This document shows positions 796 through 10,719 of a stretch of 64,000 bases of DNA, piece by piece. Every line of letters starts with the position of its first letter. Position 1 is the stretch's first letter. The DNA comes from a virus (Duplodnaviria; Caudoviricetes), in the IMG/VR virus record IMGVR_UViG_3300037067_012456, positions 40,535 to 104,534 of that record. One strand, written 5' to 3'. The notes beneath the pieces are model-generated. The model was not told where the DNA came from. It did no database searches and worked only from the letters and a program-made list of their open reading frames with translations. A program made the position numbers and the translations under genes.

Positions 796-1464
796 CTATG
801 TTTCTATTAAAATTGGAGTATCTTGATTCATTTTATCTATTATTAAATATTTTAAATTAGCTCTTTTTTCATCTTGTCCTAATGAGTATTCTGCTGGTAA
901 GTCATTACTTCTTGTAAATTTTCCACCAAAACAAAATTTTATTGCTGTATCTCCAGATTTAAATTCAAATTCATACCATGATTTTTTATCAGGATTATCA
1001 AATAAATAAAATCTACTATCTTTATCATAATCTCCTATATTATAAAACACATCAGGAGATTGTTCTTCTAATTTTTTATTTGGCTCTGCTCCAGAATTAA
1101 CTATATAAATTTTATTTGTAGCTTTAATAACAAGAGGTAATTCTTCCAAATATTGCTTAATGGCATATTGATTTTCTGCAGTTTTAAACCATTGAGGAGT
1201 ATTATTAATATTTTTATTAATTAAATTAAATTCATTTTTACCTTTAACAGAATAAGTATTATGATTATTCATAATAAAATAAAGACATTCTAATGATAAA
1301 TCTATATTTTCATCAATTATATTACCTGTAGCAATTAATGTATCATTTTTATTAAAATTTTGTTCATAAAGAGCATCAATTAATAATTCATAATTGCCAC
1401 AAATATCACCAAATATGAAATATCTATCTGTTTTTAAATTTGATAAATCTAAAACAAAATCCAT
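796..1464 (-). CDS. calcineurin-like metallophosphoesterase fold with degenerate metal ligands
   Basis: GDICG / GNIID / GKNE / VNSG / FGGK in the positions of GDIHG / GDLID / GNHE / VHAG / FGH. Confidence 0.75.
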   Translation of the reverse strand: MDFVLDLSNLKTDRYFIFGDICGNYELLIDALYEQNFNKNDTLIATGNIIDENIDLSLECLYFIMNNHNTYSVKGKNEFNLINKNINNTPQWFKTAENQYAIKQYLEELPLVIKATNKIYIVNSGAEPNKKLEEQSPDVFYNIGDYDKDSRFYLFDNPDKKSWYEFEFKSGDTAIKFCFGGKFTRSNDLPAEYSLGQDEKRANLKYLIIDKMNQDTPILIET

Positions 1465-3144: not shown

Positions 3145-5067
3145 TCATTTTAATAAATTAATAATTGTATCTTTTTCTAATGATTCTGGTGATAAATCAA
3201 TATCACATTCTAATTTATCATCAACTTTTATAGCTCCTGCTTTAAATATCAAATCGTTTAAAGTAATCATATTAGTTAATGAATTAATTAGATATTTTCT
3301 ACTATATTCTGTATATTCATTAACAGATGAAGTAATATTATTTCCTAAATATGATTCATTAAAATAAAATTTACATTCATTTGTTGTTACAACTACTAAA
3401 CCTATAGTTTTCTGTTTTTGATCTATTTTAGAAGAAGCTATAGCTAATACATTATTAGGATCTACTAAACAATTTTTATTAAAAGGACCTGGAGCTTTTA
3501 ATCCTACCATTATTTTAAATGGTACTTCTTGATCCATATATCCTTTAGAAAACGTAAAATTATTCAATTGTACTAAATAGGATGATTTTATTTGTTTATG
3601 TATATAAAATAATTCTGTAGCTCCATCTGGTTTAGGAGCAGTAGTCATATCTCCAGAAAATAATATATTACTATTGCTAGTCCTATAAGCTCCATCCCAT
3701 CCTATTTTACCTTCATTTATATTTAACATAGATAAATCTAAGTCAATTCTATCATCATTAGTATTTTCCCAATGCACACCAAAAATCATATCTTTTGGTG
3801 TGGATATACAAGTACCAGAAGGAAAATATCCAGTAAATCTTTTTTCAGTAGATGGTAATGTATATGTTATATAATTAGGAATATATACTTTTTTACCTTC
3901 AACATTGACTTTTAGATCTTGTATAATTGAATCTAGAACTATATTAAGAATCAATTTAGCATTGTTTTGATCTTCAAAAGAAAATTTTGTAGAAAATGCT
4001 TTATCATTTCTAATAGTATATTGAATAGAATCAAAATTTTTAGTTCTATATTGAAGAGCATATGCTAAACGAATCTTTCTAAAAATATTCGCTTTTGATA
4101 GTTCTTGTTTTAGAGTAGCTATCTTAATACCTTCGTTATTTTTTATTTTTGAAGTAATTTCATTTAAATAATCTATTGGCATTGGTTTATGATATGTATT
4201 AGCAAGTCTTCTAATTTTATTTATAATTGGATTTAAATCTACTTCTCTATTACGAAATGCTAAAAATAATGGTTTAAATCTATAAAAAATTTCTGCTAAT
4301 TTATCTAAACCATTTTCTTTGTTATATCTATTAAATAATTTATAAATATCATAATTAACTGTAATAGCTTGAATTGTTGTTTTATTTTTAATAAGTAAAC
4401 TTTTTCCTGTACTTTTAAAGATAACATATCTTAAAAATTCAACAGGTTCATTAGGAATAATATTAAGAGCATCATATAATCTAATTTTTACTTCTTTATT
4501 TTTAATTAAATTAATATTAATACTATATTCAGGATTTTCAACAATAGATACAATATCTTTCATTGTATCTTCATTTAAAGCAATACCAGATTGTAAAATA
4601 TCAAGAATTTTATCTTTTAATTCCTCTACAGTATATCCTTTAATAATTGTAAAAATAAATTTATCTATACCTATTTTTTTAAAAATGTTATTATATTCAA
4701 TTTTCGGAATAACTAATTTTTCAGCAGGAATATAAACATAATTTTCATTATAAGCACCCAAAGACTCAAATCCATATGTAGTTAGATAATGAATAAATTG
4801 TTCCATTACGAGTTGATCTATAGAGGCTTCTTTAATCTTTTTCCAAGATTTGTGGAAAGAAGCATTCATTTGTTGAGGAGTTAAACCAAGATCTTTATTT
4901 ATTATATTAATAATACTATTTAATTCTTCTTCTGAATAATTGTACATAACTTCAGGAGAAAAAATAAAACCATATTGTATGGTTTTATTAATTAGAGAAG
5001 AATTAATTTTCTTTCTTTTTGTTTTAATAGGAAGAGCTTTAAAAAGACGTAATGTTTGTTTTTTCAT
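3145..5067 (-). CDS. 640-aa protein with helical, basic N-terminal region and C-terminal TerD-like domain
   Basis: GVHW...RIDLDLS...FSGDMTTAP..GATE resembles TerD motifs; AAGGA RBS directly after the RNA-like array. Confidence 0.65.
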   Translation of the reverse strand: MKKQTLRLFKALPIKTKRKKINSSLINKTIQYGFIFSPEVMYNYSEEELNSIINIINKDLGLTPQQMNASFHKSWKKIKEASIDQLVMEQFIHYLTTYGFESLGAYNENYVYIPAEKLVIPKIEYNNIFKKIGIDKFIFTIIKGYTVEELKDKILDILQSGIALNEDTMKDIVSIVENPEYSININLIKNKEVKIRLYDALNIIPNEPVEFLRYVIFKSTGKSLLIKNKTTIQAITVNYDIYKLFNRYNKENGLDKLAEIFYRFKPLFLAFRNREVDLNPIINKIRRLANTYHKPMPIDYLNEITSKIKNNEGIKIATLKQELSKANIFRKIRLAYALQYRTKNFDSIQYTIRNDKAFSTKFSFEDQNNAKLILNIVLDSIIQDLKVNVEGKKVYIPNYITYTLPSTEKRFTGYFPSGTCISTPKDMIFGVHWENTNDDRIDLDLSMLNINEGKIGWDGAYRTSNSNILFSGDMTTAPKPDGATELFYIHKQIKSSYLVQLNNFTFSKGYMDQEVPFKIMVGLKAPGPFNKNCLVDPNNVLAIASSKIDQKQKTIGLVVVTTNECKFYFNESYLGNNITSSVNEYTEYSRKYLINSLTNMITLNDLIFKAGAIKVDDKLECDIDLSPESLEKDTIINLLK

Positions 5068-5079
5068 ATTAATTTCCTT

Positions 5080-5260
5080 ATAAGGCGAGAGGTAAATTCA
5101 GTGTTATAGAGTTATAAATAGGAACCTCTTATGCCTTATTATTTTAAATGGCGAAAAGTAAATACATAAATGGTTTGTTTAATAGGAACTTTTTATGCCA
5201 TTTTTAAAGCGGGTGGTAGATCACCTATAGATTTTTTTAATAGGAACCACCTTTGCTTTA
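5080..5260 (-). ncRNA. array of three tandem structured RNA units (5205-5260, 5146-5203, 5080-5139)
   Basis: Each unit on the minus strand: 6-7 bp stem, A(T/A)A/C internal loop, 6 bp stem with compensatory changes (GGTGGT/ACCACC, AAAAGT/ACTTTT, AGAGGT/ACCTCT), then TCCTATT + 18-20 nt variable + TYT. Confidence 0.8.
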
Positions 5261-5263
5261 TAT

Positions 5264-5294
5264 ATTATATAATATATTTATTCAAATTTGTCAA
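5264..5294 (-). promoter_or_regulatory. sigma70-like promoter driving the array and the 640-aa gene
   Basis: TTGACA at 5294-5289; TATATA at 17 nt spacing, TATAAT at 19 nt; start site falls near 5260. Confidence 0.6.
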
Positions 5295-6071: not shown

Positions 6072-6281
6072 TTATATATCTCTATAATCTTTAAAATTTT
6101 TTCCAAGAAATTCTAATATTTTAGTTCTATAAGTATCTATTTCTTCTTTTGTAGAAAGCCAAATACGGTATCCTTCTATTTCTTTTGTATAAAAGAGTTT
6201 ATTAAAAATTTCTATAGCTTTATCAATAGCAGCATCATTTGTTTCTTCATTTAAAGCAATTGCTAAGTGAATTGTTCTCAT
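6072..6281 (-). CDS. hypothetical protein
   Basis: ATGA overlap with the upstream gene. Confidence 0.65.
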   Translation of the reverse strand: MRTIHLAIALNEETNDAAIDKAIEIFNKLFYTKEIEGYRIWLSTKEEIDTYRTKILEFLGKNFKDYRDI

Positions 6282-6829
6282 TTTGCTGTTCCTTTTAATA
6301 TTTTATTATAAAAAACTAAAATTTCTTCCATTGATACTGGTCTATAATTCCAAACATCAACCCCAACATTTATAATAGGAATATTAACAATTTTAGGATC
6401 TTCGGTATTATATTGAAATTTCCAAAGATTATGTATATGACCACATAATGCAAAATCACAAAACTCTGGTACTTCTGGTCGCATCATTGGAGGTCTATGT
6501 TGAGCAAAAACTTGATATCCACCAAATTCTAATAAAGCAGCCATTAAAATAGATTTAACTCCATTATTAATATCATGATTTCCTGTTATATGGATAATCT
6601 TTCCATTTAATTTCTTTTCCCAATAATGTGCTTTATTATTTCCTCCTTCTTTTCCTCCACGAAAGCACCAATCTCCTAAATTATATACAATATCATCTGG
6701 TTTAACTCTTTGATTCCAATTATTTATTAATTTACTATTCATATCATCCACATTTTTAAATGGACGATTACAAAATTTAATTATTGATGCGTGTGCAAAG
6801 TGAGTGTCTGCACAAAAGAAGGTTTTCAT
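6278..6829 (-). CDS. calcineurin-like metallophosphoesterase (intact)
   Basis: DTHFAH, LGD, GNHD, H and GHIH motifs. Confidence 0.9.
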   Translation of the reverse strand: MKTFFCADTHFAHASIIKFCNRPFKNVDDMNSKLINNWNQRVKPDDIVYNLGDWCFRGGKEGGNNKAHYWEKKLNGKIIHITGNHDINNGVKSILMAALLEFGGYQVFAQHRPPMMRPEVPEFCDFALCGHIHNLWKFQYNTEDPKIVNIPIINVGVDVWNYRPVSMEEILVFYNKILKGTAK

Positions 6830-7167: not shown

Positions 7168-10100
7168 TTATCCACATTTACTAAACCCACACTCCATATT
7201 AGAACATTTTACACACCCATCAAAATAGATCAATTTACTACCACATTGTTGACATTTACCAGCATCTTCACCATCAGATATATATTTTTTTAATGTTCTA
7301 GCAATAACTTTAGCAAAATGAGTAATACCACCCTCACTTTTATTTAAAGTTTCAACAATAAATTTCAAAGGTATTCCATGACGTAATTCTAATGAAATTG
7401 ATCTAGCAAAAGCATCATGTTCTTTATTTGCAAATGTTTTCATTATATTATTAACTATTATTTCATCATCAAATTTAAAGGAATAATGACTTGATTTCTG
7501 TTTTACAATAAATCCTTCAGTTATATTTTTAGGAATATTCACATCTTCAACTGCTCCAGCAAATACTTCAAATGGTTTATTTTCATATAATCCTACAAAT
7601 GCAATCCACATTTTACCTTGATATACAACTCGGTGAATCTCACATGGAAGTTCTTTGGGTCGTTTTGGAGCATTTCTTAGTGTTTTATTATCATTATTAT
7701 GTGTTAATATACCTTCACGACATCCATCTCTATAACAAGTAACCCCGATAATACCTCTTTTATTTGCTTCTAAAAACACTTGTGACACTTCTTCTGGTGA
7801 AATATTTGATGGCATATTTATTGTATTATGAGAAATAATATTATTTATTAAATAACTGTTTGTATCTTCGACTTCTATATCATAAACTTCATTTTCATTA
7901 TTTTCTATTTTTTTTATTTTTATTAAATAAAGATCTTTATCAAAATTTGGAAAAAAGTCTAATAAAATTCTATTATTAGTTCTAAGTGGATTCTCATTTT
8001 TTTGTTGTATATTAAAAGTTTTATGTGAATGTGTATATTTTTCTATATTAGTTGAAACAATATCACATATTTTTATATTTTTCAATTCTTTTGGAAATGG
8101 AATTAAATTATATCCAGCAATTTTAATTTGTTTGTGTTTTTCAATTGGAGTAAAAAAAGATTCATTAATAGATACTCCATAAGTATATTTTGAAATTCTT
8201 CCATTTTTTACATATTTTTTCATTTTATATGGTTTTAAACCAAGTTCACAACATATAGAAAAAATAGAATCAACTAAAGTTTTTGAATATCCTTCGTATA
8301 GTACTAATGTATTTCTTTTTATATATCCATCCAAAGATAATCCATTAATAAAATTAATTTTTTCTTCTTTTGATCCATATAAAATTTCTTTTGGTATTGT
8401 TTTATCAAGACAACCATTTCCAATTAAATTTTTTATATATCTCATTAATTTTCTTGAAGTAATATATACAGATCTTGTATTTTTTGTTCTTTTATCTTTT
8501 ATTGTATTAACTTTTTTACATTTAAATAATTTGAAACATAATTGAGTAAAAATATTTTCAACTAAATCATCTGCAGTTGTAATACCAACATGTCCTGTAC
8601 TTTCAACTAATGAGCCATCTGAAACAATCATACCCAAAAATAATGCCAAATCTTCTGACATTATATTAGGTAAACAAATATCATTAGAATTTGATTTGTT
8701 AGTAAAATCTACACATAAAGATTGTTTACCTATAAACTCTTCTGAATAATCTCTACTTCTACAATAAATATAATCATTTTCTTTTAAATTTTTTGATTCT
8801 ATCCATCCATTTTTTGTATATAATTTATGTGTTTCAGAACATTCAAGAATATCACCATTATCAAAATATATTATTTTTGTTGGTTTTATACCACCAGAAT
8901 AATGTTTTTTTATTTTCTTCCAATCACCATTAATATCTCTAACTTTCAAATCTTTAGCTTTTCCAAAAACATCATTACCACTAGCATCTCCCAATTCTTC
9001 TATAGAGAATATTCCTTTATTAGTTTGTATCTTTGTTCCTTTAGCAACACATTTACTTACACTAAGAGATACATTATTTGCTACAGATTCTAAAATATCT
9101 AGATGTTCCATTGGTTTCAGATCACCCGCAGTTACAAAGACTTTTCTCATTTCTTCTGGAATATCTTTACAAGTTTGACAAGATCCATTATTTTCTGATA
9201 CTTCTTTCATTATTTTAGTTTTTATTTCAGCAGAAAAATTTTCATTTAAATATTCTTCAAATATAGGATCTGATAGATATACTGTTTCATATTCTTTATT
9301 CAATTTTTCTATTTTTCTAGAATATACTAAACCGAATACCGGTTCAATTCCACTAGATACGTCAGCTATAAAACTAATTGTTCCTGTAGGAGCTTGGCTA
9401 GTAAAACAACTGTTTCTTATACCATGTTTTTTAATATCTTTTTTTAATTGATCTATATCAATATCTCTACAATTTTTAGTAAAAAACCTCTCATTAGCTT
9501 TCATAAATAGATTATAATTAAATGCAGGATAAGCACCAACTTCTGCTGGATTTGCAAGACATTCCCATTTTTTGTCTCTTTCTATTTGTTCCTTTCTATA
9601 TTCTTTTGACAATTCTATAGATTCTTTCATTGAAATTAATGTAAAATATCTAAATAGTTCTTCTGTGAACTTTATGGCTTTTTCTGAATTATATGGTATT
9701 TTTTTCTTAAAAAGAATGTGAGCTAATCCCATTGTACCCAATCCAATGGGTCGTGTATCAAGAGTTATTTTCTTTATTTTTGATAGAGGATATATATTAA
9801 TATCTATGGCATTATCAATAAATCTAGTTGATTCTTTTATTAATTCAGTAAATCGTTCCCAATTAAATTTAGATCCATCAAGCATTTTAATTAAATTTAT
9901 TGAGCCTAAATTGCACGATTGATAAGGAATTCCTGTAAATTCGCTGCAAGGATTACAAATAACTTGATCATTTAAATTTGTTACAGTACATCTATCGTGT
10001 GCTATTGTTTCATTAAATATACCTGGTTCAGCACATTTCCATGCTTGTTTAATAATGAGATCCCAAACTTCTTTAGTAGTATATGTTTTTCCTGTTTTAT

Positions 10101-10719
10101 CCTGAACTGCATATTCAAGACCATTTTTACTCCTTACCATATGAGGACAATTAGGATCTTTTTCAAGTTTTTCATAAAATGAAGAAGGAATTTTAATTGA
10201 GAGATTTAATCTATTAATTTTTGAAGTATCATCTTTTACTTTAATAAAATCAAGAATATTTGGATGTTCTATAGAAAGAAGAGCCATTCCAGCTCCCCTT
10301 CTTTTACCCCCTTGACGAATACTATCAAGCATTGAATTAAAGTTTTCTATGAATGCAAGAGGTCCACTAGAATTAGCACTTAGACTTAATATATTTTCTC
10401 CAGAACCACGTAATGACGAAAAATCATATCCAACACCACCACCAGATTTTGTTACTAATGCTCCCTCTTTTAGAGATTCAAAGATTTCTTCTATGGAATC
10501 TTCTATTTGCATTGGAAAACAGGAACTTAATGTTCCTTTTCTTTCAGAAGTTCCCCCATTCATAAGAGTGGGGGAAGATGGGATAAACCATTTATTTTTA
10601 ATATATTCTTTAATGGGAGGATATATATTACTAACTCGTTCTGCTAGTTGCTCCCATGTTTCTTCATTTTTTAAGAAATAACGTTCCTTAAGAAGTTTTA
10701 AAATTGCCCCTTCATTCAT
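7168..10719 (-). CDS. nrdJ: class II (adenosylcobalamin-dependent) ribonucleotide reductase with intein
   Basis: SSCF, GGGVG, NPCSE, CNLGSINL, APTGTIS, SVSK/TINM and GVTCYRDG motifs; C-terminal RPKELP and Zn-ribbon domain. Confidence 0.9.
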   Translation of the reverse strand: MNEGAILKLLKERYFLKNEETWEQLAERVSNIYPPIKEYIKNKWFIPSSPTLMNGGTSERKGTLSSCFPMQIEDSIEEIFESLKEGALVTKSGGGVGYDFSSLRGSGENILSLSANSSGPLAFIENFNSMLDSIRQGGKRRGAGMALLSIEHPNILDFIKVKDDTSKINRLNLSIKIPSSFYEKLEKDPNCPHMVRSKNGLEYAVQDKTGKTYTTKEVWDLIIKQAWKCAEPGIFNETIAHDRCTVTNLNDQVICNPCSEFTGIPYQSCNLGSINLIKMLDGSKFNWERFTELIKESTRFIDNAIDINIYPLSKIKKITLDTRPIGLGTMGLAHILFKKKIPYNSEKAIKFTEELFRYFTLISMKESIELSKEYRKEQIERDKKWECLANPAEVGAYPAFNYNLFMKANERFFTKNCRDIDIDQLKKDIKKHGIRNSCFTSQAPTGTISFIADVSSGIEPVFGLVYSRKIEKLNKEYETVYLSDPIFEEYLNENFSAEIKTKIMKEVSENNGSCQTCKDIPEEMRKVFVTAGDLKPMEHLDILESVANNVSLSVSKCVAKGTKIQTNKGIFSIEELGDASGNDVFGKAKDLKVRDINGDWKKIKKHYSGGIKPTKIIYFDNGDILECSETHKLYTKNGWIESKNLKENDYIYCRSRDYSEEFIGKQSLCVDFTNKSNSNDICLPNIMSEDLALFLGMIVSDGSLVESTGHVGITTADDLVENIFTQLCFKLFKCKKVNTIKDKRTKNTRSVYITSRKLMRYIKNLIGNGCLDKTIPKEILYGSKEEKINFINGLSLDGYIKRNTLVLYEGYSKTLVDSIFSICCELGLKPYKMKKYVKNGRISKYTYGVSINESFFTPIEKHKQIKIAGYNLIPFPKELKNIKICDIVSTNIEKYTHSHKTFNIQQKNENPLRTNNRILLDFFPNFDKDLYLIKIKKIENNENEVYDIEVEDTNSYLINNIISHNTINMPSNISPEEVSQVFLEANKRGIIGVTCYRDGCREGILTHNNDNKTLRNAPKRPKELPCEIHRVVYQGKMWIAFVGLYENKPFEVFAGAVEDVNIPKNITEGFIVKQKSSHYSFKFDDEIIVNNIMKTFANKEHDAFARSISLELRHGIPLKFIVETLNKSEGGITHFAKVIARTLKKYISDGEDAGKCQQCGSKLIYFDGCVKCSNMECGFSKCG
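7825..9051 (-). mobile_element. 409-aa intein with LAGLIDADG homing endonuclease
   Basis: Begins CVAKGT and ends VYDIEV...ISHN before Thr; LGMIVSDG and INGLSLDG blocks; splits the SVSK|TINM motif. Confidence 0.92.

What the first reader, a model, noticed from the sequence alone, without database searches (positions are those of the whole stretch)
5080..5260. Tandem array of three covarying stem-loop RNAs with a constant scaffold and variable loops: candidate new small-RNA/protein system
Seen directly on the minus strand: TAAAGC-AAA-GGTGGT-TCCTATT-[AAAAAAATCTATAGGTGA]-TCT-ACCACC-C-GCTTTA; AAATGGC-ATA-AAAAGT-TCCTATT-[AAACAAACCATTTATGTA]-TTT-ACTTTT-C-GCCATTT; ATAAGGC-ATA-AGAGGT-TCCTATT-[TATAACTCTATAACACTGAA]-TTT-ACCTCT-C-GCCTTAT. 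Stem sequences differ between copies but pairing is perfectly kept. The 3x1 internal loop (AWA opposite C), the GT-TCCTATT motif and TYT-AC are invariant, and the 18/18/20 nt inserts differ. That pattern indicates selection on RNA structure. The units are 1-6 nt apart and fill the space between a promoter and the RBS of a 640-aa gene. Inference: they are processed into ~57-nt RNAs bound by that protein, as guide-like RNAs, Y-RNA-like scaffolds or decoys. Alternatively they are tandem autoregulatory operators.
Basis: partly seen in the sequence, partly recalled or inferred. Interest (0 to 1): 0.92.

Follow-up and report, generated by a model that had tools for sequence, protein, structure and literature searches.

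The report
Y-RNA-like RNAs with TerD-domain partner
Three small folded RNAs with one shared, highly conserved "handle" sit in front of an uncharacterised phage gene, and the same RNA-protein pair recurs in hundreds of phages, bacteria and archaea, often among tRNA or RNA-repair genes, so it is probably an undescribed counterpart of the Ro60/Y-RNA particle.

Summary
Three 56-60-nt stem-loop units lie on the minus strand at 5080-5260, between a TTGACA promoter and the RBS of a 640-aa gene (3145-5067).

A covariance model built from related units finds 218 copies beside homologues of this gene in 77 of 80 viral contigs. It also finds 95 copies in 65 of 78 bacterial or archaeal loci, and copies in three isolate phages whose proteins are only 26-30% identical. 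Every hit is on the gene's strand. Nine of 11 stem pairs show compensatory changes. No Rfam family matches the window's units.

Units are usually in the 5' leader. Some lie downstream of the gene or alone between tRNA genes, so they are not merely a leader.

The apical part is modular. Some relatives carry a permuted tRNA-like module that hits Rfam YrlA below threshold.

The protein has a basic helical N-domain of unknown fold and a TerD-fold C-domain. TROVE homology is not detectable by sequence, and the fold comparison is inconclusive.

Best reading: a Ro60/Y-RNA-like RNP linked to tRNA or RNA-repair biology. Processing and binding are untested. The guide-RNA idea is not supported.

Other agents of this scan reached the same reading on other DNA.

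The parts
5264..5294 (-). Probable sigma-70-type promoter: TTGACA at 5294-5289, with -10 as TATATA (17-nt spacer) or TATAAT (19-nt spacer). Transcription would start at or next to the first base of unit 1.
   Evidence: Sequence read. Not listed by the consensus scan. The orthologous contig L169 has TTGACA-17-TATATT at the same place.
5205..5260 (-). RNA unit 1: P1 UAAAGC/GCUUUA, AAA/C internal loop, P2 GGUGGU/ACCACC. The apical segment contains AUAGG.
   Evidence: CM R1 scores 58.9 bits, E 1.3e-13.
5146..5203 (-). RNA unit 2: P1 AAAUGGC/GCCAUUU, AUA/C internal loop, P2 AAAAGU/ACUUUU.
   Evidence: CM R1 scores 61.3 bits. The loop is conserved in orthologue L169.
5080..5139 (-). RNA unit 3: P1 AUAAGGC/GCCUUAU, AUA/C internal loop, P2 AGAGGU/ACCUCU.
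   Evidence: CM R1 scores 63.3 bits. The loop has diverged in L169.
5075..5079 (-). Shine-Dalgarno AAGGA, 7 nt before the ATG. It directly follows unit 3.
3838..5067 (-). N-terminal ~410 residues of the 640-aa partner protein. Basic (pI 9.5) and mostly helical, with no Pfam or PHROG family. Invariant residues are basic or aromatic (K73, H93, Y94, Y98, R213, R263, R353).
3289..3801 (-). TerD-fold beta-sandwich domain (residues ~423-593), acidic (pI 5.0 for residues 411-640).
3145..3288 (-). C-terminal helical tail of the protein, plus the stop codon.

Best explanation
The three units are genes for small structured RNAs of an undescribed family. Each RNA has a constant 'handle': P1, a C-A-N-A/C internal loop, P2, and the invariant G-UUCCUA ... 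UAC junction. On top of the handle sits a variable apical module.

I infer that the handle is the docking site for the basic helical domain of the adjacent 640-aa helical/TerD protein. I infer that the apical modules present RNA shapes to other factors. Those shapes are plain hairpins, anticodon-loop-like hairpins and, in some relatives, a whole permuted tRNA-like domain.

The result would be a modular RNP that works like Ro60 with its Y RNAs (YrlA/YrlB). It would most likely act on tRNA or damaged RNA during infection, through tethering, decoy or quality control.

In this phage the array is transcribed from its own promoter as the 5' part of the protein's mRNA. It would have to be cut out to act in trans. 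While still in the leader it may also let the protein feed back on its own translation.

Shown: the RNA family, its covariation, its strand specificity, its strict co-occurrence with the protein family, the YrlA-like modules in relatives, and the TerD fold.

Inferred: binding, processing and cellular role.
For: 1. Co-occurrence. CM R1 finds 218 units in 77 of 80 viral loci that carry a homologue. The three loci without a hit are two with no upstream DNA and one divergent locus. It finds 95 units in 65 of 78 bacterial or archaeal loci. It also finds units beside the 26-30%-identical proteins of isolate phages S-CRM01, S-CBWM1 and Phass-1. The window's own 104-kb genome has only these three.

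2. The feature is RNA, on this strand. All 313 hits with E <= 0.1 are on the gene's strand. Nine of 11 pairs have compensatory changes. In 75 hits that were not used for training, 97.7% of cells pair, with 22 G-U against 2 A-C.

3. It is not only a leader. Units lie just downstream of the gene in 7 viral loci and in S-CRM01. They lie 1.4 kb downstream in Phass-1. One sits alone between tRNA-Pro and tRNA-Glu in S-CBWM1.

4. tRNA link. The module sits inside same-strand tRNA gene clusters in about 15 of 60 loci and in both cyanophages. Large units in L023, L164, L127 and L140 carry T arm, closed acceptor stem and D arm. They hit Rfam YrlA at 39-52 bits, E 2.5e-7 to 5.6e-6. Anticodon-loop-like apical loops number 34 of 283, against 9.5 +/- 3.1 in shuffles.

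5. RNA-repair neighbours. RtcB lies within about 3 kb in 4 of 78 genome loci. One locus has a CCA-adding enzyme. Sigma-54 activators lie downstream in Fibrobacter loci.

6. Precedent. Thermus phage phiLo has two Y-RNA-like genes directly upstream of its Ro60 gene, each a stem-bulge-stem with a CGAA bulge (PMC12135203). The YrlA Ro60 motif is GNCGAAN0-1G (PMC4201824). Here the corresponding sequence is G-R-C-A-N-A-R-G.

7. The N-domain is basic (pI 9.5) and its invariant residues are basic or aromatic.
Against: - There is no expression, processing or binding data.
- In this window the array is contiguous with the mRNA and no terminator separates them, so a purely cis role cannot be excluded here.
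- The handle lacks the CGAA motif.
- The YrlA hits are below Rfam's gathering score and occur in only a small minority of units, none of them in this window.
- RNA-repair neighbours are present in only a few loci, and no neighbouring protein gene is conserved overall.
- The 100% pairing in alignment A2 is partly circular, because I selected units by pairing.
Confidence: 0.6

Rival explanations
1. The units are a cis-regulatory leader. They would be tandem operators in the 5' UTR through which the encoded protein, or another factor, controls translation or stability of its own mRNA. No trans-acting RNA product would exist.
For: About 200 of 218 viral units lie within about 520 nt upstream of the start codon. 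In the window the last unit ends directly at the Shine-Dalgarno sequence, and no terminator separates array and gene. The promoter appears to start transcription at unit 1.
Against: Units lie downstream of the gene in 7 viral loci and in S-CRM01. They are 1.4 kb away behind other genes in Phass-1 and 1.3 kb upstream in L033. One lies alone between two tRNA genes in S-CBWM1. Copy number ranges from 1 to 7, and apical modules differ, including full tRNA-like domains. Operators have no need for these. This rival is compatible with the best explanation as a second role.
Confidence: 0.2
2. The units are stand-alone tRNA-part mimics. They would act as decoys or substrates for host tRNA-targeting nucleases, modification enzymes, RNase P/Z or the CCA enzyme, and would work without binding the neighbouring protein. 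The protein would be an enzyme of the same pathway and not an RNP partner.
For: The units are embedded in tRNA clusters. Anticodon-loop-like loops recur with covarying stems: CUGUUAA in 8 units and CUUGAAA in 4. Some units carry tRNA-like modules. P1 plus P2 gives a 12-13-bp stack followed by G-UUC, reminiscent of an acceptor/T-arm minihelix (sequence, my inference).
Against: The invariant handle is kept even where the protein is only 26% identical, and it is never found without the gene in the DNA examined. This argues for direct recognition. Most apical modules are not tRNA-like.
Confidence: 0.12
3. The units are guide-like RNAs whose variable loops base-pair with nucleic-acid targets, analogous to CRISPR or OMEGA guides.
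For: A constant scaffold carries a variable 18-20-nt segment in a tandem array beside a large protein.
Against: Loops are inherited with the locus and partly conserved in the 83% orthologue. They fall into recurring classes with conserved loop sequence and covarying stems across distant phages. Many are replaced by GC hairpins capped by UUCG or GAAA, or by tRNA-like domains. The protein has no recognisable nuclease domain.
Confidence: 0.04
4. The units are a DNA-level element, such as recombination sites, an origin or a miniature repeat, or they are tandem riboswitch aptamers.
For: They are tandem imperfect palindromes. Their conserved internal loops could form a ligand pocket.
Against: Orientation relative to the gene is strictly constant (313 of 313 hits). 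G-U greatly exceeds A-C. The units do not spread through the genome. No expression platform is present, and some units lie downstream of the gene.
Confidence: 0.04

Closest known systems
Ro60 (Rsr; TROVE + vWA) with bacterial and phage Y RNAs: YrlA/YrlB of the Salmonella rsr-yrlBA-rtcBA operon, Yrn1 of Deinococcus, Yrl1/Yrl2 of Thermus phage phiLo
   Same: - One or several small RNA genes lie next to the protein gene. In phiLo two lie directly upstream.
- The RNA is modular: a stem-bulge-stem handle plus a variable effector module.
- In some members the module is a permuted tRNA-like domain (T arm, closed acceptor stem, D arm) that hits Rfam YrlA.
- RtcB and sigma-54 activators are occasional neighbours.
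- The bulge motif is similar in form: GRC-ANA-RG here against GNCGAAN0-1G in YrlA.
   Different: - The partner has no TROVE or vWA domain by Pfam or hhalign. It ends in a TerD fold instead.
- The handle lacks CGAA and has its own invariant G-UUCCUA...UAC junction.
- Most units are only 50-60 nt and have no tRNA-like domain.
- Arrays reach 7 copies.
- Rfam YrlA scores stay below the gathering score.
- One bacterium (Bythopirellula, L111) has both this protein and a canonical Ro60 1.8 kb apart, so the two are distinct.
TerD family (PF02342; tellurite-resistance / Ter stress system proteins, e.g. PDB 2kxt, 3ibz, 2qz7)
   Different: The domain is fused to a 410-residue basic helical domain and is not in a ter operon. 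The Pfam TerD model does not reach significance. From my knowledge of the family, not tested here, the acidic Ca-binding stretch after SGD reads TTAPKPDGATE in this protein.
Phage tRNA gene clusters and tRNA-like small RNAs
   Same: Same strand and same clusters as the tRNA genes. Some apical modules copy tRNA parts.
   Different: ARAGORN and Rfam tRNA do not call the units. They have no cloverleaf.

Membership tests
Y RNA / YrlA (Rfam RF02553) | Matches the Rfam covariance model at or above its gathering score (69 bits). | tested here: not met
   The window's units give no YrlA hit at E <= 10. Large relatives in L023, L164, L127 and L140 score 39-52 bits, below 69.
Y RNA / YrlA (Rfam RF02553) | tRNA-like domain: T arm, closed acceptor-like stem, D arm. 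| tested here: not met
   Absent from the three window units. Present in a minority of related units, such as L023:2354-2471 and L025:2361-2475.
Y RNA / YrlA (Rfam RF02553) | Ro60-binding motif GNCGAAN0-1G (CGAA bulge) near the 5' end (PMC4201824, PMC12135203). | tested here: not met
   The handle reads G-R-C-A-N-A-R-G, with C 100%, A 100%, N, A 97%. The form is similar but it is not the motif.
Y RNA / YrlA (Rfam RF02553) | Encoded next to, and bound by, a Ro60 (TROVE) protein. | tested here: not met
   The neighbour is the helical/TerD protein. No TROVE gene is present in the 104-kb record. Binding cannot be tested here.
Ro60 / TROVE (PF05731) | Sequence match to the TROVE and Ro60-vWA models. 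| tested here: not met
   No Pfam hit at E <= 5 for 29 members. hhalign of A1 and A6 against a TROVE+vWA_Ro60 protein gives probability 0.3% and 0.03%.
Ro60 / TROVE (PF05731) | HEAT-repeat ring fold. | tested here: inconclusive
TerD (PF02342) | TerD beta-sandwich fold. | tested here: met
TerD (PF02342) | Pfam model match above cut-off. | tested here: not met
   No TerD hit for any of 29 members at E <= 5.
tRNA | Cloverleaf recognised by ARAGORN or Rfam RF00005. | tested here: not met
   No tRNA is called in the window and there is no RF00005 hit on the units.
CRISPR-like / guide RNA arrays | Variable segments unrelated between close relatives, beside an effector nuclease. | tested here: not met
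   The orthologue keeps the same units and two of three loops. Loops form recurring classes. No nuclease domain was found.

The most novel reading that the evidence does not exclude
This would be a widespread, undescribed ribonucleoprotein class that evolved independently of Ro60. A helical/TerD protein would hold a set of interchangeable small RNAs by a common handle. Their tips would imitate parts of tRNA: the anticodon stem-loops of tRNA-Asn and tRNA-Ser, the tRNA elbow, or a whole tRNA-like domain. Large phages would use it to decoy, titrate or recruit host tRNA-directed enzymes (anticodon nucleases, modification enzymes, RtcB-type repair). That would protect the phage's own large tRNA set. 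Bacteria would use the same particle in RNA-damage responses.
Probability: 0.3. Interest if true: 0.9.

Novelty: new variant of a known kind. Interest (0 to 1): 0.8.

Why it matters
Ro60/Y RNA is so far the only known system of this type in bacteria and phages, namely a protein that carries modular tRNA-mimicking small RNAs. Here a second protein family fills the same genomic niche. It has 1363 clusters at 50% identity and no Pfam or PHROG family. It comes with its own RNA family of more than 300 copies, which is absent from Rfam.

The system is common in large phages with big tRNA sets, including cultivable cyanophages (S-CRM01, S-CBWM1). It also occurs in cultured bacteria (Ktedonobacter racemifer, Marinicella meishanensis). 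It can therefore be tested directly.

The finding gives a function lead for a large 'hypothetical protein' family. It points to spurious ORF calls such as S-CRM01 g173c. It may also bear on how phages defend or manage tRNAs against host anticodon nucleases.

Tried and rejected
- blastn of the locus against 50,697 phage records found no match.
- A single-protein scan of viral contigs found nothing. A scan with a query alignment was needed.
- Pfam and PHROGs gave nothing for the protein or its small neighbours.
- A PDB sequence profile search gave only noise.
- hhalign against a TROVE protein was negative. The template was a single sequence, so sensitivity was limited.
- The exhaustive profile search returned 1363 hits but lists only the best 150, so the weak tail could not be inspected for a bridge to TROVE.
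- The ESM Atlas returned only unnamed viral clusters.
- The contig for P0003 is not on record.
- Clustering of neighbouring genes found no conserved partner protein. The apparent clusters were antisense ORFs inside the gene.
- Supplements of the 10,006-csRNA catalogue (PMC10690425) are not held, so I could not check whether this motif is among its unnamed candidates.
- Literature searches for TerD with Y RNA, tRNA or phage found no description of this system.
- The terminator-like site on the + strand at 5211-5226 is only the antisense of unit 1.
- A k-turn reading of the 3-nt loop was rejected, because no G-A/A-G pairs follow the loop.
- The pairing CCUAU/AUAGG inside unit 1 is not kept in the orthologue, so I do not count it as part of the structure.
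- I did not search the loops against genomes. At 18-20 AT-rich nt, chance 11-mer matches are expected.

Full report
OBSERVATION

On the minus strand three units lie at 5260-5205, 5203-5146 and 5139-5080, separated by 1 and 6 nt. Each unit reads as follows: P1 (6-7 bp); A-N-A opposite a single C; P2 (6 bp, ending G-C then U-A); UCCUAUU; a variable 18-20 nt segment; U-Y-U; then the 3' strands of P2 and P1.

Each unit folds this way on its own (z -3.9, -2.2, -3.9), and so does the whole leader (z -4.1).

Upstream is TTGACA (5294-5289), with a -10 at a 17-nt spacer (TATATA) or a 19-nt spacer (TATAAT). The consensus scan did not list it. The 83%-identical orthologue L169 has TTGACA-17-TATATT in the same position. 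Transcription therefore probably starts at the first base of unit 1.

Unit 3 is followed at once by AAGGA and then, 7 nt later, the ATG of a 640-aa ORF (3145-5067). No terminator separates array and gene.

The window is part of a 104.5-kb IMG/VR virus record, estimated 38% complete. The motif occurs only here in that record.

IS IT MORE THAN CHANCE?

The protein has more than 2000 homologues of about 630 aa, none of them named. A profile of its N-domain finds 1363 clusters at 50% identity.

In 80 viral contigs carrying a homologue, a simple look for TTCC.A showed 2-6 hits with a 60-80-nt period upstream of the gene.

I aligned 62 units (A2). Nine of 11 stem pairs show compensatory changes, and the covariation score is 0.72 against 0.10-0.17 for slid partners. 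The 100% pairing in A2 is partly circular, because I picked units by pairing.

The covariance model R1 then found 218 units in 77 of the 80 loci. Two of the other three loci have no upstream DNA. Among 75 distinct hits not used for training, 97.7% of cells pair, with 22 G-U against 2 A-C. All hits are on the gene's strand.

The invariant positions are:
- C-A-N-A at the internal loop;
- G-UUCCUA after P2;
- U-A-C before the P2 3' strand;
- C-G at the bulge.

This is an RNA feature of this strand under structural selection.

HOW FAR DOES THE ASSOCIATION REACH?

tblastn found full-length homologues, 26-30% identical, in the isolate phages S-CRM01 (g174), S-CBWM1 (gp22) and Phass-1. R1 finds units in all three.

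- S-CRM01 has two units upstream and one directly downstream of g174. The upstream pair overlaps the annotated antisense ORF g173c.
- S-CBWM1 has one unit directly upstream of gp22. A second unit sits 2.5 kb away, alone between tRNA-Pro and tRNA-Glu.
- Phass-1 has four units 1.4 kb downstream of the gene.

In 78 bacterial and archaeal genome loci R1 finds 95 units in 65 loci, again all on the gene's strand and mostly just upstream. These loci include chromosomes of Melioribacteraceae and Bythopirellula and the isolate Ktedonobacter racemifer. Most loci without a hit lack upstream DNA.

In viral loci, units lie downstream of the gene in L011, L030, L041, L046, L064, L069 and L075. They lie more than 1 kb upstream in L033, L027 and L073.

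The RNA and the gene are therefore a conserved pair, but the RNA is not bound to the 5' UTR.

THE APICAL PART

The variable segment is not random. Several loop classes recur in distant phages with covarying stems:
- a 3-5-bp stem capped by CUGUUAA (8 units, 6 different stems);
- a stem capped by CUUGAAA (4 units);
- a stem capped by A-U-U-G-G-N;
- GC-rich hairpins capped by UUCG or GAAA.

Seven-nt loops with U at position 2 and a purine at position 6, the anticodon-loop signature, number 34 of 283. Shuffled sequences give 9.5 +/- 3.1.

A few units carry a roughly 60-nt insert made of a T arm (GGGUUCGAUUCCC), a closed 8-bp stem and a D arm. This is the permuted tRNA-like domain of YrlA. Rfam YrlA matches L023:2359-2471 over the full model (39 bits, E 2.5e-7). 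It also matches L164, L127 and L140 (42-52 bits). All are below the gathering score of 69.

The window's own three units have short apical parts and no Rfam hit at E <= 10.

In the 83% orthologue the same three units occur in the same order. The loops of units 1 and 2 are largely conserved and the loop of unit 3 has changed. This is ordinary vertical descent, not spacer-like turnover.

GENOMIC CONTEXT

No neighbouring protein gene is conserved.

The module sits inside same-strand tRNA gene clusters in about 15 of 60 viral loci and in both cyanophages.

In genome loci I found the following:
- RtcB lies within about 3 kb in L090, L103, L106 and L146. In L103 one unit directly follows rtcB.
- L090 also has a CCA-adding enzyme.
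- Five Fibrobacter loci have a sigma-54 activator with a GAF domain just downstream, and a large unit lies between it and the gene in the four loci that hold that stretch (YrlA match checked in L164).
- In Bythopirellula a canonical Ro60 (TROVE + vWA_Ro60) lies 1.8 kb away.

My rough estimate is that 4 of 78 loci with RtcB is tens of times more than chance would give.

THE PROTEIN

AlphaFold2 with 29 sequences gives mean pLDDT 84.

The N-terminal ~410 residues are basic (pI 9.5, against 5.0 for the C-part) and mostly helical. Their invariant residues are basic or aromatic.

There is no Pfam, PHROG or PDB sequence match.

BFVD holds full-length structural relatives in Campylobacter, Lactobacillus and other phages.

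MECHANISM

The best reading (confidence about 0.6) is an RNP that works like Ro60/Y RNA. The protein's basic helical domain would hold the constant handle. The apical modules would present RNA shapes, many of them tRNA-like, to other factors in tRNA or RNA-repair biology.

The published parallels are close in form:
- Y RNAs are a stem-bulge-stem handle plus an effector module.
- YrlA mimics tRNA and carries GNCGAAN0-1G near its 5' end (PMC4201824).
- Thermus phage phiLo has two Y-RNA-like genes directly upstream of its Ro60 gene, and they bind it (PMC12135203).

Here the handle reads G-R-C-A-N-A-R-G.

Binding, processing and the cellular role are all inferred.

A cis-regulatory role for leader copies (about 0.2) is compatible with this reading and may coexist with it. 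Stand-alone tRNA-part decoys (about 0.12) are possible. Guide RNAs, DNA elements and riboswitches are disfavoured.

NOVELTY

No Rfam family, no Pfam family and no paper in the searchable library describes this pair. A 2023 catalogue of 10,006 unnamed viral RNA candidates could contain the motif, but I could not check it.

The system fails the tested defining features of Y RNA/Ro60 membership, so I file it as a new variant of that kind and not as a member.

Other agents of this scan reached the same reading on other genomes. I re-tested the main claims here and they hold. The RNA-repair association is real but involves only a few loci.

Noticed in passing
L087:3797-3943 (Synechococcus phage S-CRM01, NC_015569 132391-132537): The annotated antisense ORF g173c (48 aa) overlaps both RNA units (3754-3812 and 3822-3883) on the opposite strand. 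It is probably a spurious gene call.
   Followed up: partly
L111:9693-11339 (-), Bythopirellula chromosome OZ245849.1: A canonical but divergent Ro60 (TROVE 37.6 bits, vWA_Ro60 49.5 bits) lies 1.8 kb from the helical/TerD gene on the opposite strand, with a PcfJ-like gene between them. The two systems coexist in one locus.
   Followed up: partly
L162, L164, L166, L167 (Fibrobacter): about 7838-7949 and the ORF from about 7870 in L164, L166, L167; unit at 6361-6466 in L162: A ~108-nt unit lies just downstream of the gene (L164's hits Rfam YrlA at 51.7 bits; the other three were not run against Rfam). It overlaps the start of the called ORF of a sigma-54 activator with a GAF domain. This recalls RtcR control of rsr-yrlBA-rtcBA.
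   Followed up: partly
L103:3463-4841; also L090, L106, L146: RtcB RNA ligase genes lie close to the module. In L103 a unit (4793-4841) directly follows rtcB. L090 also has a CCA-adding enzyme (PolyA_pol + HD) next to the gene.
   Followed up: partly
Related units, e.g. L007:2280-2330, L014:2424-2474, L005:2346-2400: Apical hairpins capped by CUGUUAA (the loop of tRNA-Asn GUU) or CUUGAAA (tRNA-Ser UGA) recur with different, covarying stems. They may be anticodon stem-loop mimics.
   Followed up: partly
window 7168-10719 (-): A ribonucleotide reductase large subunit is interrupted by an intein: Ribonuc_red_lgC to residue 558, Intein_splicing over 572-965, then a TSCPD domain.
   Followed up: no
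window 796-1464 (-) and 6278-6829 (-): Two calcineurin-like phosphoesterases flank the locus within a few kb: a NinI-like phosphatase (phrog_246) and a phosphoesterase (phrog_547). I did not check this.
   Followed up: no
L088:6030-6206 (S-CBWM1): Two features annotated 'tRNA-pseudo' lie just downstream of the homologue gp22, inside the tRNA cluster. They were not examined with the model beyond the negative R1 scan.
   Followed up: no
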